Of a DNA stretch of 64,000 nt, positions 1-9,000 are shown in pieces. The stretch is from the NCBI GenBank assembly GCA_000165345.1, contig CM000433.1, forward strand, positions 800,001 through 864,000. Reading direction: 5' to 3'. The position numbers were made by a program. How positions within the stretch are numbered: position 1 is the stretch's first letter; each line of letters begins with the position of its first letter.

Positions 1-3000
1 TGAATGGGGAGTATGTAGTAAAAGCTGTGGAGGAGGGGCAAGATCTAGAGTTAGAGAAGTGATTTCTCAACCTAATGAGGGAAAGGAGTGCGAATTCTTA
101 AAGGAATTTGAGCCATGTAATGAATTCCAGTGTATTGCAACTCGTGATTGTGAAGTTGGACAGTGGTCTGTTTGGTCTCCTTGCTCTGCAAGTTGTGGGG
201 GAGGAGTAAAAAGACGACAAAGAGAAGTTCAGGTTCCAGCAACAGGAGGAGGTAGATGTGAATTTGAGCTCAACCAAAAGGTGGGTTGCAATGGCTTTAA
301 ATGCCCAGGAGAACCCTGCATAGACAGACCAGAAGCCCAGGAGGTTGTTCCTTGCTCTATTTTGAAAGCAATGTTTGGTTGCCAGAAACGACTTATTGAT
401 GTAGCCAAGTCTAATGGAGTGCCTTATCCAGATGATCGCCCACCAGAAGCAAGAATTATGGATGGATGTCCAGCAACTTGTGGAATGTGTGTTGAATGTG
501 CTCCAGGATGCCAATTAAGAGATGTAGGGAACTTGAGCTGTGATCCTGCATGCAATAACGCAGCATGCAGGTTTGACGATGGGGACTGTGAGAAGAACAG
601 CCCTCAAAAGGCTTCTTGTATCCTTCCAAAGCTTCCAGAGGCTTTTCTATTTTTGTCAAAAAAAGAAGACCAGGTAAGAAAAGGAAACGGAAGTGATTTT
701 CTGGAAATTGGAGGAAACTCAAATTCCGGAAAAAAGGAAGCTCAGAATATTCTGAAGGATAGTAGTGATAATAACCTTGTCGTGTTGGAAAGTTTTACTT
801 CTCAGAGTAGTCTAAATAGCTCCTCTGGAAAATCTAATAATTATGGCTTTGCAGGTAACCAGGCTCAGATGCAGGTCCATGAAATGGAATTCTCCCAAGA
901 AGATTATAATAATGAACGTCATGGAAATGATGGTAGCAATACTATTAGAGAATACAAGAAAGGCGATACAGTTTACATTAGATGTGATAAAGGAAAGAGG
1001 TTTAGAAAGTACACAGCTATTCCCTATTTTAAATACCAATGCAAAGAAAGTGGATTTATTCAGCTTATTGAACCAAAAGGTGCTCCTTTACTTTACGTTG
1101 ATGGAGATGGTATCCCAAGAATCCCCACTTGTGAAGAAGATGAATGTCCATATTTGATGGCACAAGAAGCTCCTCAGATGATTGGAACAGTTAATACTCT
1201 ATATAAAAGGGATTTAAGTCATTCATACACATATATTATGTATAGAGATATTGGAGAACCAATATTTATTACTGGAGATCATCAGAGGATTATATTGGGT
1301 CCAGTTGGAACTCTTTACTTAATTTCTATAGATTCATTTTACCCAGAGTTTGGAGACCCTTCATTTGAAAAGTATAGATTATGGAGTTTGGTTGATATTT
1401 CTCAACAGAAAATCATTCAAGAATTTGTGGAGCTTAAGCTGGTCTGTGTAAAGAATCCCAACTCTCTTAATAGTAATTTAATGAGTACCAATTCCACTAC
1501 AGATTCTGAGATAGTTAAGGCTTCTTTCAATAGGCCTTTAAGATTTCTTTCTCAAGTATATTCAAATTCAAACCTGAGTTCTCGAATCATAGACTTTAAG
1601 GCTTCTGATGAAGTTCCTGATTTTGGAAGAAATCTTCAAGAGAAGCCTTACACTTATGTAATGGGGAAAAAGAGGTTTTGTGAGGACCAACCGGAAGTTA
1701 AGGAACAGGGAATACTTTGCGAAACTTTATCAACAATGTGTGATATTAATATTCCTAATCCTCAAAATTATGGATTGCCAGAGAATAGTTTTGTTTGGCA
1801 AATCTGCCCTTCAACTTGTAATAAATGTAAGGAATGCTCTGCTGGATGTCCTGAGTGGTTTAAAGGTAATACTGTTTGTGATAAGGCTTGCAATAATGAG
1901 GCTTGTAACTTTGATGATGGAGACTGTAAGGGAGTTCAAAGCGAACAAGATGATAATGAAATTCAAGGAAAAGATAGTGAGAGAAATGATATTGAGAGTG
2001 AGCATAAAAATAGAAATTACCATGAAAAGAATAATATTAAAGATGACCAGGGAGATGAAGATTCCAGAGAATTTACTAGTAATATAGTTATTCCAGAAGG
2101 TGCAGTTACATATTTTGCAGGAAAGTTTAGAAACTGTACAGATATTCCTGAGCTTATAGACTCTCTTGCAAGTTGTAAGGCACTTAAGCAAACTTGCCAG
2201 CTTAAACTACCTCTTTCAGCCTCCTCATTAGAGGCAGGGCTATCTCACTCTTCAACCATTAGCCAGGTTTGCCCAAAGACATGTGGTATTTGTGAGGAAT
2301 GTGCTCCTGGATGCCCAAAATGGTTTATTAAGAATGGCTACTGCGATGTCAACTGTCAGAATCCAGAATGCCAATTTGATGGTGGGGATTGCTCTGATGA
2401 TAATATAACTAGAAATCCAAAATTACCCATAAAGAGTCCAAATGATTCCGATATTTCTTCAGGTTCTACTTCAAATTCTTATCAAAACTCAAGTGCTAGC
2501 AAAAATAATAACTCTGGAAAGAACAGCTGTAAGGATAATCCAATCATATTTGAAGTGTTTAATAGAAGCTGTGAAGAGCTTAAAACAAGCTTTGGATGTA
2601 GTATTAATTTGGAGAAGATTATCCAAACTGGAACTAAGCTCCCAGATCGAATAAAGCCTGGTACTAAATTAAAAGAACTATGTAAGCTAACGTGTAAGAA
2701 CTGCTCTAATAAGAAGGATGATGATAGGATTACTGGTATTGGAAAGAATGACCAAACAAATAAAAATGCAGATATTAAAACAGAAAGGCCTTATACCATA
2801 ATCTTCAATGAGAAAAGATATTGTGAAGACCAACCAGAAGTAGCAAAAAAAGGAATTAGTTGTAAGAACTTATCTTCTATGTGTAATGCATCAATTCCAG
2901 GAGCAAAAACTTATGGGCTTCCTGATGGGACTCCAATTTGGAGGGTATGTCCTTCAACTTGCAACAAATGTAAAGAATGCTCTGCTGGATGTCCTGAGTG

Positions 3001-6000: not shown

Positions 6001-9000
6001 ACCTTTGAAGAAATCTGACTTTTTTACAGGAAGTAATAGACCAATCATATCTTCTGTGGGAACAAATACTGGTAATATTGAGTCTGAAGGAGTAACAGGA
6101 TCATCACCAAACAGTAGTACATATTCTAATTTGGAGGTTTTATTAGAGGAATCTAATGAAAGCTGGCTTGATCTACTTTGTACAAGTACGTCAAGTGGAA
6201 CTCATTGTCAGGAATCTTTATCAATATTGCTGGAGAGAAATCCTATCAAGAGCAAGACACTTTTATTGAATCCATGCCATTCAAAGTGTTTTATGATTGT
6301 AGCTGGACGACTTGGATCTTCACTACAAAGATTCGGACAGCTAGCGTTGGATCCACAATCTGAATCTTTAGGGCTTCTGCTTAGACATTATTCCAGACAT
6401 TTTTGTGTAAAGAACTCAAAAGGACAATCTTGTGGACCATTATTATTTGCAGGTGCATCTTTTGCTTTGGAAGCTTCTCTCTCTCATAAGCAGAATTTTG
6501 GAAAAGAAACTCAAACAAAAAATACAAACTTAACTAAAGGAGAAAAGATAAATGTTTCTGGATTTGGATTACAAGATCAAAACGAAGGAGGAATGGAAAT
6601 TAATGCATCAGAATTTGAAAATTTTAGCAGAAATTCTCATTTAAGCAGAGAAATCAACAAGGATAACTCAATTGTTGGATTCCAAGCACACAAAATGGAG
6701 AATTATTGTAGCAATGGATGCTTTAGTTATTATGTTGGAGATGGAATGTGTGATTTACAATGTTTTAATGAAGCCTGTAACTGGGATAGAGGAGACTGCC
6801 AATCTTCTTCAATGTATCCTGAAATTTATCAGCCTTTGGAGGATCTTTTTAAGGGATGTCTTGCAGGATCATCCTCAAAGTCAAGCGGAACAAGACAAGG
6901 AGGAACATGTTCCACAACTTGCAGAGCAAGATACTCCATTTTGGCAGAAACTTTGGGTTGTTGTACTTCAGTTGCTGTCGACTTGTATCAATCTCTAACA
7001 CAGTTATTAGACGACCAACCACATGGAGGAGGATCTTCAATTTCAGGAGAGCCATTTTCCTCATCTTTGAATTCAATGTGGTCCATTTCGCGACTTGAGC
7101 AAATGTGTGGTATGAGTTTAGATAGAACATGCTCAGATGGTCTTCCGAGAATACAAACAAGGATGACCTTGGCTTTGGACCATCCAGATTTAGGCTTGTC
7201 TGATGACCCTCAGACTCCCTTGGCAGTTTCAAGAATAGTTAGTAGAAGTCTTGGAATTTTGGATTCTGATATTAAAAAGGTATTCTTTACTAACAATGCT
7301 CCTTATTCTAGTGCAGACTACAAAGAATTTAAGTTTTTGGTGGACATAGTAATTGATACAGGATCAACCGAGCTGATTGATATGGATGAGAGGTTGCTAC
7401 TAGAAGGACAAATGAATAAGTTACAAAGAAAATGGGGACTAGACTTTTGTTATGAACTTGGGGATTCAAATGGCGAAGAATGTAGAGTTAAAGTGTTTGA
7501 AGTTGTTTCAGAGCCTATTTCCTCTTTAGGTATTTCTAATTCCACAGCTCCTGAATTGCCATGGATGAATTCAATAGGGTTTTCTTACTTAAATAAAGAC
7601 TTACCTTCTGAACCATGTTCTATTAATCATCAGTATCTACAAGATGCAAGTAGGTACAGAGTAGTACCTATTTCAAGTCAATCCACTTCTTCATCTGTAT
7701 TCACCTCCTCAACAGGGTATGGAACTTCAAATAATTACAAGTCAATGAGTCATGGATCCAAATTCTCAATTTCTTGTACAAATAATAACTATTCTCCTTC
7801 AACAGGAAGATCACCAGATACTTTAACATGTAACAATGGAAGGTGGGAGACTTCTTCTGGTCTTAGATGTAACAGAAAATGTTTGTCACTTCCAGATCTT
7901 CCAATTGGTCTTAAATTCAAAGAAAACTTGGCTATGCTTGGATTAAAGAAGGAACAGGGTCAAATGATAAATCATGGATTTAAAGCTCAGGTTGAATGCT
8001 TCTCTGATGACTATAGAAGCACATCGGCTATCATAGAGGATACTATTCAATGCATAGATGGAATTTGGACTACTCCTAGATTAGAATGCAGAAAATCTTG
8101 TACAAACTTAACTAGTACAAGTCTGGGATCCAGTAGTACTGTTGTTGGAAGAGAGTATAGACATAATGATCAAAGAAAAGTATTTTGTAGTGATGATCAC
8201 TATCTATCTCCAAAATCTGGTAAAACTACCGTTCCAAGCCATTCAAAATTATCTCAAGATAAAAAAGATCAATTAAAAACTAGTAAAAATAGTAATTCAA
8301 TTATACAACAGGAGCAATTACACATTTCCAAAAGTTATAAAGGTATTACAACGCTTGATGAGGCTATTAGAAGAGGATATTACTTAATAAGTTGTAATGA
8401 TGGAACTTGGGAATCTGAACCTTTAATATGTGTTAAAGGTACCTTAACAGATTTCAGTAATATTAAAAGAGGTATAGAGATAACTATGACTCACATCTTC
8501 TCAATTAAAACTTTGATTGCTTGTATTGTAATCGTCTCTACTATATTCATTATTATCATTGGAATTTGGCTTGCTTGGATATTTAGATATAAAAGACAGA
8601 CTGAAATTTATGATATGGACCATCTTGAGAGAGTTGAGAATGCTAGAAGGGTGCTTCTTCAGCTTTCTGGTATTGGATATACAGAAAATATGAGTTATGA
8701 TCAGACTACAGAAAATTCGAATATGATCATACAAGGTCAAGATAGGCTTTCAAATCATATTTCCTCGCCTCCTTCTTCCTCCTGGGAAAGTCTTAATAAT
8801 TTTATTGATCAAGGGAATAATATTGGGAGTAATACAGGAAAAACTACCTAAATCCAACTTAACTCAAATTTTCTTAGTACTCAAGACTTTATAGTATTTA
8901 TAACCCAGCTTAATATATAGTCCCATCAATTTTGAAAGAATTTAAAGGTATTCATGGAAAATTAAAGGTAAATATAATTATAAGAACAACTAGAGCCAAT

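What the first reader, a model, noticed from the sequence alone, without database searches (positions are those of the whole stretch)
1..8851. Giant multidomain surface protein (TSP1 + 5 LNR + sushi + TM), an adhesin/invasion-ligand candidate
The domain mix matches apicomplexan extracellular adhesive proteins. TSP1 motifs sit at the very start of the window and at nt ~160-330. There are five Notch/LNR calcium-binding modules and C-terminal sushi/CCP repeats. A single TM and a ~110-aa cytoplasmic tail follow. LNR domains are rare outside metazoans and were noted as animal-like acquisitions in Cryptosporidium. The cytoplasmic tail lacks an obvious acidic/Trp TRAP-like motor-binding motif.
Basis: partly seen in the sequence, partly recalled or inferred. 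Interest (0 to 1): 0.5.

Follow-up and report, generated by a model that had tools for sequence, protein, structure and literature searches.

The report
Known Cryptosporidium surface protein CpTSP2 (TRAP-C2)

Summary
Window 2-8851 (+) is one uninterrupted 2949-codon frame. It is 100% identical to residues 921-3869 of C. parvum Iowa II "TRAP-C2 extracellular protein" (EAK88035.1 / Q5CRC0), which is CpTSP2, gene cgd5_3420. The window starts inside the gene, so 920 residues are missing: the signal peptide, two LNRs and 12 and a bit TSRs.

- One partial and one complete TSP1 repeat.
- Five LNR modules (Pfam E 3e-29).
- One transmembrane helix.
- Three membrane-proximal sushi/CCP modules. Pfam misses these; the invariant Cys/Trp pattern and a fold search show them.
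- The tail is 88 aa, not ~110.

I model that region as a helical bundle, LNR5 and a SEA-like alpha/beta domain.

The function is not settled. The papers read here assume an adhesin. The protein is present and C-mannosylated in sporozoites. However, spatial proteomics places it at the plasma membrane or inner membrane complex rather than in micronemes. Transcript levels are low. The tail lacks the canonical TRAP motif. The Toxoplasma orthologue (TGME49_223480) is transcribed in enteric and oocyst stages.

Verdict: real, ordinary and already known. The only mildly new lead is the LNR plus SEA-like arrangement, which has the same order as the Notch negative regulatory region.

The parts
2..8851 (+). 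C-terminal 2949 codons plus stop of cgd5_3420 (CpTSP2 / TRAP-C2). The gene starts upstream of the window; full length is 3869 aa.
   Evidence: Open frame. 100% identity over 2949 aa to P0047 (EAK88035.1/Q5CRC0) and P0055 (AAO39046.1), residues 921-3869.
2..133 (+). Partial TSP1 repeat (TSR 13 of 14, cut by the window edge). Carries the O-fucosylation motif CSKSCGGG. The published doubly C-mannosylated peptide 912-927 spans the window start.
   Evidence: Pfam TSP1, 2 stretches. Motif scan. PMC10034466 Table 1 / Fig 3. Table S1 TSR 914-964.
149..304 (+). Complete TSP1 repeat (TSR 14) with WSVW and CSASCGGG motifs.
   Evidence: PF19028 best stretch aa 50-101. Motifs.
317..589 (+). ShKT-like six-Cys module (nt 317-490) fused to LNR 1 (nt 497-589).
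   Evidence: Regex. Pfam LNR. Pfam ShK only E 0.11. ShKT/LNR assignment in PMC10034466 Table S1.
617..1132 (+). Possible degenerate CCP-like four-Cys module (aa 206-377) with a long low-complexity insert. Not fold-tested.
   Evidence: Four Cys conserved in all orthologues. No Pfam hit.
1142..1444 (+). Region that John et al. 2023 call a 'streptavidin-like domain' (protein 1301-1401). Not re-tested here.
   Evidence: PMC10034466 Table S1.
1679..1927 (+). ShKT-like module plus LNR 2. Part of the internal duplicate with nt 2937-3126.
   Evidence: 190-nt direct repeat 1794-1983 vs 2937-3126 at 93% identity.
2135..2392 (+). ShKT-like module plus LNR 3.
   Evidence: best Pfam LNR stretch aa 765-798.
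2528..2704 (+). ShKT-like module. Listed as 'LNR' in the published table, but it has the CxD...CxxS/TCxxC pattern.
2822..3070 (+). ShKT-like module plus LNR 4.
3272..3898 (+). Three further ShKT-like six-Cys modules (aa 1091-1147, 1172-1235, 1239-1299).
   Evidence: Pfam ShK E 0.1.
3962..4228 (+). Probable fourth CCP module (aa 1321-1409). The Trp is replaced in Cryptosporidium but kept in gregarine-like orthologues (DGTWSTP).
   Evidence: Orthologue alignment. Not fold-tested.
4427..4600 (+). ShKT-like module (aa 1476-1533).
   Evidence: Pfam ShK E 0.03.
6119..6496 (+). Conserved helical bundle with six invariant Cys (aa ~2040-2165). No Pfam family.
   Evidence: Conserved core (query 439-564). 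Invariant Cys in A2. AF2 helices, pLDDT 72-92. Pfam finds only LNR.
6707..6799 (+). LNR 5.
   Evidence: Pfam E 3e-6 on the segment, and found in 22/22 orthologous segments..
6800..7531 (+). Helical hairpins (aa 2267-2370) followed by a beta-alpha-beta-beta-alpha-beta domain (aa ~2380-2510) with a SEA-like fold.
7616..8431 (+). Three sushi/CCP modules (aa 2539-2623, 2627-2696, 2700-2810). The first and third carry disordered inserts.
   Evidence: Invariant 12 Cys + 3 Trp. AF2. Foldseek hits all CCP proteins.
8510..8584 (+). Single transmembrane helix (TLIACIVIVSTIFIIIIGIWLAWIF).
   Evidence: Hydropathy. AF2 helix. UniProt TM quoted in PMC13095730.
8585..8848 (+). 88-aa cytoplasmic tail. It has a conserved membrane-proximal helix (ERVENARRVLLQLSG) and an SSSWES motif.

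Best explanation
The ORF is the C-terminal 76% of CpTSP2 (TRAP-C2, cgd5_3420) of Cryptosporidium parvum. CpTSP2 is a 3869-aa type I membrane glycoprotein conserved in Cryptosporidium, coccidia and gregarines.

Shown:
- Identity of the gene.
- A long, disulfide-rich modular ectodomain. Within the window it holds 2 TSRs, 9 ShKT-like modules (4 of them fused to LNRs), a fifth LNR inside a conserved helical/SEA-like region, and 3 membrane-proximal CCP modules.
- One TM helix and an 88-aa tail.

From the papers read here:
- The protein is made and C-mannosylated in sporozoites.
- It fractionates with the plasma membrane / IMC.
- It appears in an early-infection secretome.

Inferred:
- It sits in the parasite plasma membrane as an extended stalk. 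The stalk presents TSR, CCP and calcium-stabilised LNR modules for binding extracellular ligands, which could be host glycans or matrix, or parasite-derived matrices.
- The conserved membrane-proximal cytosolic helix, rather than an acidic/Trp TRAP-type motif, couples it to a parasite partner.

My estimates: identity and topology about 0.97; some adhesive or ligand-binding surface role about 0.6; specifically needed for sporozoite invasion about 0.25.
For: - 100% identity to Q5CRC0/AAO39046.1.
- Pfam TSP1 and 5 LNR. The full-length protein has 12 TSP1_spondin and 6 LNR stretches.
- CCP fold.
- TM and tail.
- Collinear orthologues at 15-30% identity in Eimeria, Neospora and gregarine-like sequences. 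An orthologue is reported in Porospora, chromerids and coccidia (PMC9250747).
- Sporozoite proteome and C-mannosylation (PMC10034466).
- Secretome listing (PMC12604037).
- PM/IMC assignment and TM (PMC13095730 Table 2).
- The population data are not evidence of selection: 13 segregating sites in 11,610 nt and Tajima's D -0.62 (not significantly different from 0) show only low diversity.
Against: - No functional experiment on this protein was found in the papers searched.
- Transcript levels are rated low in all stages sampled, and one proteome found only a single peptide, in the oocyst wall fraction.
- The Toxoplasma orthologue is not detected in zoite proteomes.
- No ligand is known.
- The domain types (TSR, CCP, LNR, ShKT) indicate extracellular interaction, but they do not identify a partner.
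Confidence: 0.85

Rival explanations
1. A TRAP/MIC2-type micronemal gliding adhesin. It would be released onto the apical surface, linked through its tail to the actomyosin glideosome, moved rearward, and shed by rhomboid cleavage in the TM during sporozoite or merozoite invasion.
For: - TSRs, type I topology and a short tail.
- The historical name TRAP-C2.
- Presence in sporozoites and in the early secretome.
- Listed as a candidate rhomboid substrate, by similarity only (PMC13095730).
- A conserved Trp in SSSWES. In C. andersoni it lies only 6 residues from the C-terminus.
Against: - No vWA/I domain in the window or in the full-length protein.
- The tail is only mildly acidic (net -3), and in C. 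parvum its Trp is 22 residues from the end. C. xiaoi lacks the Trp.
- hyperLOPIT gives PM/IMC, not microneme.
- Low mRNA.
- The TM has no AGG-type small-residue motif as in MIC2/TRAP. This is by inspection and rests on my own knowledge of the motif.
- The Toxoplasma orthologue is absent from tachyzoite proteomes.
Confidence: 0.15
2. A sexual-stage or oocyst-stage surface or matrix protein, for example on macrogametes or zygotes, or tethering sporozoites to the oocyst wall. On this reading its presence in sporozoite preparations is carry-over from oocyst development.
For: - TGME49_223480 transcripts appear in enteroepithelial stages, with no proteomic evidence in tachyzoites, bradyzoites or sporozoites (PMC9218915 Table 1).
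- A higher predicted expression in unsporulated oocysts is mentioned in bioRxiv 10.1101/382515.
- One C. parvum peptide comes from an oocyst-wall proteome.
- Named hits are all from oocyst-forming lineages (Cryptosporidium, coccidia, gregarines) plus Cardiosporidium. There is no named Plasmodium or piroplasm hit among the 46.
Against: - The protein is detected in excysted sporozoites and fractionates as PM/IMC there.
- The evidence is indirect, by orthology with 15-30% identity.
- The tachyzoite CRISPR fitness score of -3.9 for the Toxoplasma gene is odd for a gene expressed only in sexual stages.
- I could not reach stage-resolved C. parvum data (single-cell atlas).
Confidence: 0.25
3. A regulated, Notch-like receptor. 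LNR5 would clamp a SEA-like (HD-like) domain, as in the Notch negative regulatory region. Ligand pull would then expose a cleavage site and lead to ectodomain shedding and/or signalling through the conserved tail.
For: - The order LNR, then helices, then a beta-alpha-beta-beta-alpha-beta domain is conserved in 22 orthologous segments.
- pTM 0.72 suggests the parts pack together.
- The two longest Foldseek alignments are to the Notch3 and Notch2 NRRs.
- The protein is listed in a secretome.
Against: - The Foldseek matches are not significant (E 0.09 and 0.25, probability 0.13-0.16).
- No Pfam NOD/NODP or SEA hit in any of the 22 segments.
- There is one LNR, not three.
- Three CCP modules (~270 aa) separate the domain from the membrane, so it is not juxtamembrane as in Notch.
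- I saw no furin-like or GSVVV autoproteolysis motif by eye.
Confidence: 0.1

Closest known systems
CpTSP2 / TRAP-C2 (cgd5_3420, UniProt Q5CRC0, GenBank AAO39046.1, EAK88035.1) of Cryptosporidium parvum
   Same: Identical sequence over all 2949 residues held in the window. The published architecture is signal peptide, LNRs, 14 TSRs, ShKT/LNR units and 2 SCR (PMC10034466 Table S1).
   Different: The sequence does not differ. My annotation differs from the published table in these ways:
- Three, not two, C-terminal CCP modules.
- A clear TM, which the table does not list.
- Three six-Cys units that the table calls LNR fit the ShKT-like pattern.
- The published C-terminal coordinates appear shifted by about 60 residues.
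- An added helical-bundle plus SEA-like region.
[quoted passage not shown]
   Same: Same collinear architecture: many TSP1, NL/LNR, sushi and a TM (PMC9218915 Table 1). Alignable along the whole C-terminal half. The membrane-proximal cytosolic helix is conserved.
   Different: Only 15-30% identity. The cytoplasmic tails are much longer (about 200-600 aa). The protein has been reported only at the transcript level, in cat enteric stages and unsporulated oocysts.
TRAP/MIC2 family gliding adhesins (Plasmodium TRAP, T. gondii MIC2, C. parvum TRAP-C1/CpTSP1)
   Same: TSRs with WxxW C-mannosylation and O-fucosylation motifs, type I TM, short tail.
   Different: - No vWA/I domain.
- Five to six times larger.
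- Carries LNR, ShKT and CCP modules.
- The tail is not strongly acidic and its Trp is not subterminal.
- Assigned to PM/IMC rather than micronemes.
Metazoan LNR + CCP proteins (pappalysins PAPP-A/PAPP-A2) and the Notch NRR (LNR + SEA-like HD)
   Same: LNR and CCP modules occur together, as in PAPP-A. PAPP-A appears among the CCP fold hits and pappalysin-2 among the LNR sequence hits. The LNR is followed by a SEA-like alpha/beta domain, as in Notch.
   Different: No metzincin protease domain and no EGF repeats. The resemblance to the NRR is one of order and fold class only and is statistically weak.

Membership tests
CpTSP2 / TRAP-C2 orthogroup (cgd5_3420) | Sequence identity to the reference protein along its length | tested here: met
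   100% over 2949 aa to residues 921-3869 of P0047/P0055. 97.6% to C. hominis, 93.6% to C. meleagridis, 80% to C. ubiquitum.
Thrombospondin type 1 repeat (PF00090 / PF19028) | HMM match above the gathering score | tested here: met
   PF19028 61.6 bits (cut-off 41) and PF00090 42.3 bits (cut-off 21.6), 2 stretches each.
LNR / Notch domain (PF00066) | HMM match above the gathering score; six Cys plus the D/N calcium-site motif | tested here: met
   101.5 bits (cut-off 21.2), 5 stretches. The pattern C..GC...C[DN]..C....C.[FW]D.GDC occurs five times. PDB sequence hits to the GNPTAB and Notch1/2/3 LNRs.
Sushi / CCP / SCR (PF00084) | Sequence HMM match | tested here: not met
   No PF00084 hit on the whole ORF (E<=1) or on aa 2530-2815 alone (E<=10).
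Sushi / CCP / SCR (PF00084) | Four invariant Cys and the invariant Trp between Cys III and Cys IV in each ~60-aa module | tested here: met
   12 invariant Cys and 3 invariant Trp in three modules across 12 orthologues.
Sushi / CCP / SCR (PF00084) | Beta-sandwich CCP fold | tested here: met
   AF2 model with pLDDT about 85-93 in the module cores. Foldseek against the PDB gives 65 hits at E<=1e-3, and the 50 listed are all CCP-containing proteins.
ShKT domain (PF01549) | HMM match; six-Cys pattern ending CxxxCxxC | tested here: inconclusive
   [not shown]
TRAP/MIC2 gliding adhesins | vWA / integrin-like I domain in the ectodomain | tested here: not met
   No PF00092 in the window ORF or in the full-length protein.
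TRAP/MIC2 gliding adhesins | Short, strongly acidic tail with a subterminal Trp | tested here: not met
   88 aa with 11 acidic and 8 basic residues. The single Trp is 22 residues from the end. The Trp is conserved in 7 of 8 Cryptosporidium sequences but absent in C. xiaoi.
TRAP/MIC2 gliding adhesins | Micronemal storage and rhomboid shedding | not testable with these tools
   hyperLOPIT gives PM/IMC, as quoted in PMC13095730. Candidacy as a rhomboid substrate rests on similarity only.
Notch negative regulatory region (LNR x3 + HD; Pfam NOD/NODP) | Sequence match to the HD (NOD/NODP) domains | tested here: not met
   Only PF00066 was found in 22/22 orthologous segments. No NOD, NODP or SEA hit.
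Notch negative regulatory region (LNR x3 + HD; Pfam NOD/NODP) | LNR packed on a SEA-like alpha/beta sandwich | tested here: inconclusive
   [not shown]
Toxoplasma CRMP-complex TSR proteins (MIC15 / TSP1) | Orthology to MIC15 (3 TSRs + H-type lectin) or to TgTSP1 (1 TSR) | tested here: not met
   The best Toxoplasma relative is TGME49_223480, not MIC15 or TGGT1_277910. The architectures differ.

The most novel reading that the evidence does not exclude
The conserved region at aa ~2020-2510 of the CpTSP2 family is a previously undescribed module: a disulfide-locked helical bundle, one LNR and a divergent SEA-like domain. It would be structurally and mechanistically analogous to the Notch negative regulatory region. 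On this reading the giant protein is a force- or ligand-gated, proteolytically regulated receptor conserved across Cryptosporidium, coccidia and gregarines, rather than a passive adhesin.
Probability: 0.12. Interest if true: 0.6.

Novelty: already known. Interest (0 to 1): 0.15.

Why it matters
CpTSP-family proteins are discussed as vaccine antigens for cryptosporidiosis, and CpTSP2 is by far the largest member. The gene, its domain mix and its 'animal-like' LNR and sushi modules are already annotated and published, so the finding adds nothing new at that level.

Two points are useful to a specialist. First, the assumed role as a micronemal invasion ligand is not backed by the localisation and expression data now available. 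Second, about 500 conserved residues next to LNR5, unannotated so far in the papers I could read, model as a helical bundle plus a SEA-like domain. That suggests a testable regulated-shedding hypothesis.

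Tried and rejected
- Pfam for sushi on the whole ORF and on the isolated C-terminal segment: no hit. Settled instead by the conservation pattern and the fold.
- Pfam ShK, and a profile of the nine six-Cys modules against PDB sequences: only sub-threshold matches. ShKT membership is left inconclusive.
- A link to the Toxoplasma CRMP/MIC15/TSP1 rhoptry-discharge complex: considered because those proteins are TSR proteins. Rejected because the orthologue is TGME49_223480 and the architectures differ.
- Pfam on 22 orthologous segments of the region around LNR5, to look for NOD/NODP/SEA: only LNR.
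- Foldseek of that model against the PDB: nothing significant.
- Original description (Deng et al. 2002, PMC132954): not held.
- Supplements of the 2026 sporozoite phosphoproteome: not held.
- Stage-resolved C. parvum single-cell data: could not be reached.
- Neighbouring genes (DnaJ, NAC-alpha, 5'-nucleotidase, DTW, thioesterase, BPL_N): housekeeping, with no functional link.
- Chance ORF: rejected.

Full report
**What is there.** Frame 2 of the + strand is open from nt 2 to the stop at 8849-8851. That is 2949 codons, and no in-frame start is needed because the frame runs off the 5' end of the window. With the base composition of the region, the chance of no stop codon over that length is about 1e-103. 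G+C is 35-42%, and purine skew is positive throughout. Both fit a + strand coding region in an AT-rich genome.

**Identity.** A search of the 5.8-billion-protein collection gave a 3871-aa Cryptosporidium hominis 'TSP1/LNR repeat containing protein' at 98% identity and 100% coverage. Orthologues followed in C. ubiquitum, C. canis, C. xiaoi and C. andersoni. More distant collinear relatives appeared in Eimeria, Neospora, Toxoplasma/Hammondia, Cardiosporidium and a Gregarina transcriptome. The 90% cluster contains C. parvum Iowa II EAK88035.1 'TRAP-C2 extracellular protein' (UniProt Q5CRC0) and AAO39046.1 'TSP1 domain-containing protein TSP2 precursor'. BLASTP shows the window ORF is 100% identical, without gaps, to residues 921-3869 of both. 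The window is therefore C. parvum DNA and starts inside gene cgd5_3420; the gene id comes from PMC10034466 Table S1. The missing 920 N-terminal residues carry the signal peptide, two LNRs and 12 and a bit TSRs.

**Checking each claimed feature.**
- TSP1. Pfam gives PF19028 at E 8.5e-17 and PF00090 at E 8.7e-11, two stretches each. One is the truncated repeat at aa 1-44 and one is complete at aa 50-101. Both carry the O-fucosylation consensus CxxSCxxG, and the second carries WSVW. The published doubly C-mannosylated CpTSP2 peptide 912-SDCVLGEWTEWGVCSK-927 straddles the window start.
- LNR. PF00066 hits at E 3.2e-29 with five stretches. A pattern scan places them at aa 166-196, 612-642, 767-797, 993-1023 and 2236-2266.
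- Sushi. Pfam does not detect it. An alignment of aa 2530-2870 with 11 orthologues shows exactly 12 invariant Cys and 3 invariant Trp, arranged as three C...C...C..W...C units. The AlphaFold2 model (mean pLDDT 73, module cores about 85-93) retrieves CCP proteins as every one of the 50 listed hits: factor XIII-B at 4.4e-7, then factor H, beta2-glycoprotein I, PAPP-A, CD55 and CD46, with 65 hits at E<=1e-3. Three CCP modules are confirmed by fold. The first and third have disordered inserts, which probably explains why the HMM misses them.
- TM. The helix is aa 2837-2861. It is modelled as a continuous helix and agrees with the UniProt TM 3758-3780.
- Tail. It is 88 aa, not ~110, with net charge about -3 and a single Trp 22 residues from the end.

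- Units 2 and 4 include a 190-nt stretch that is 93% identical at the DNA level (nt 1794-1983 vs 2937-3126). This points to a recent internal duplication or gene conversion.
- Two further four-Cys modules (aa 206-377 and 1321-1409) look like degenerate CCPs. In the second, gregarine-like orthologues retain the Trp. I did not fold-test these.

**The unannotated conserved region.**
- An exhaustive HMMER search with aa 1590-2530 found 239 relatives at E<=1e-3. Most match only LNR5. About 30 share two cores: aa ~2028-2153, and LNR5 plus aa 2267-2434.
- A 22-sequence alignment has 24 invariant positions, mostly Cys.
- The AlphaFold2 model has mean pLDDT 69 and pTM 0.72. It shows a helical bundle, a disordered linker, LNR5, helical hairpins, and a beta-alpha-beta-beta-alpha-beta domain at aa ~2380-2510.
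- Foldseek finds nothing significant. Its two longest alignments are to the Notch3 and Notch2 negative regulatory regions, at E 0.09 and 0.25.
- Pfam sees only the LNR in all 22 segments.
- I read this as a moderately supported SEA-like fold and a weak, interesting resemblance to the LNR plus HD order of Notch. Against the analogy, there is one LNR rather than three, and three CCP modules separate the domain from the membrane.

**Function.** No experiment on CpTSP2 itself turned up in the papers searched.

Evidence consistent with a surface adhesin of invasive stages:
- Its peptides are in the middle abundance quartiles of the excysted sporozoite proteome, and three of them are C-mannosylated.
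- It is listed among proteins captured in a 3-6 h secretome.
- Nucleotide diversity across 32 isolates is low: 13 segregating sites in 11,610 nt, Tajima's D -0.62.

Evidence against the specific micronemal, TRAP-like model:
- mRNA is rated low in oocysts/sporozoites and intracellular stages, and one proteome found a single peptide, in the oocyst-wall fraction.
- There is no vWA domain.
- The tail is not strongly acidic and its Trp is not subterminal.
- The Toxoplasma counterpart TGME49_223480 (16 TSP1, Sushi, NL, TM, 4752 aa) has no proteomic evidence in tachyzoites, bradyzoites or sporozoites. Its transcripts appear in enteroepithelial stages, and a higher predicted expression in unsporulated oocysts is also noted.

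What is conserved in the tail is a membrane-proximal helix. It reads ERVENARRVLLQLSG in Cryptosporidium and RERAEALQALKLAG in Eimeria. This implies a conserved cytosolic partner of unknown identity.

My commitment: a plasma-membrane type I glycoprotein with an extended ligand-binding ectodomain (probability of some adhesive role about 0.6). Whether it acts in sporozoite invasion (about 0.25), in sexual or oocyst stages (about 0.25), or as a regulated receptor (about 0.1) remains open.

**Surroundings.** Downstream genes are ordinary housekeeping genes with no link to this one: a DnaJ/DUF1977 protein on the - strand at 9156-10427, then NAC-alpha, a 5'-nucleotidase, a DTW protein, a thioesterase and a BPL_N protein.

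**Verdict.** The gene and its architecture are already annotated and published (GenBank AAO39046.1 and EAK88035.1; PMC10034466; PMC9250747; PMC13095730), so novelty is 'already known' and interest is low. The SEA-like domain next to LNR5 is the only lead that goes beyond the papers I could read.

Noticed in passing
[not shown]
   Followed up: partly
window 1794-1983 and 2937-3126: A 190-nt direct repeat at 93% identity, covering the end of a ShKT-like module, an LNR and the following linker. This indicates a recent internal duplication or gene conversion between units 2 and 4. The region between and around these units is the least conserved part of the protein in C. canis and C. xiaoi.
   Followed up: partly
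window 617-1132 and 3962-4228: Two additional four-Cys modules that look like degenerate CCP/sushi domains. The Cys are conserved in all orthologues, and the Trp is retained only in gregarine-like orthologues of the second module.
   Followed up: partly
window 8585-8848: The cytoplasmic tail has a membrane-proximal helix (ERVENARRVLLQLSG) conserved from Cryptosporidium to Eimeria and Neospora. It also has an SSSWES motif conserved in 7 of 8 Cryptosporidium sequences; in C. andersoni the Trp is only 6 residues from the C-terminus.
   Followed up: partly
published table (PMC10034466 Table S1) compared with window aa 2236-2266 and 2627-2696: The published coordinates for the last LNR (3096-3126) and the SCR domains (3445-3556) sit about 60 residues lower than the motifs in Q5CRC0 (3156-3186; 3547-3616). 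The TM is not listed. Three ShKT-pattern modules are labelled LNR.
   Followed up: yes
window 9156-20659: The downstream neighbours are compact housekeeping genes: DnaJ/DUF1977 (- strand), NAC-alpha/UBA, 5'-nucleotidase/metallophosphatase, DTW, a 4HBT thioesterase and a BPL_N protein. One 490-aa ORF (19187-20659, - strand) has no Pfam hit.
   Followed up: partly
window 42030-44218: Three long overlapping ORFs on both strands: 42030-44015 (+), 43210-44007 (-) and 43262-44218 (+). This suggests a biased-composition or repetitive coding region. Not examined.
   Followed up: no
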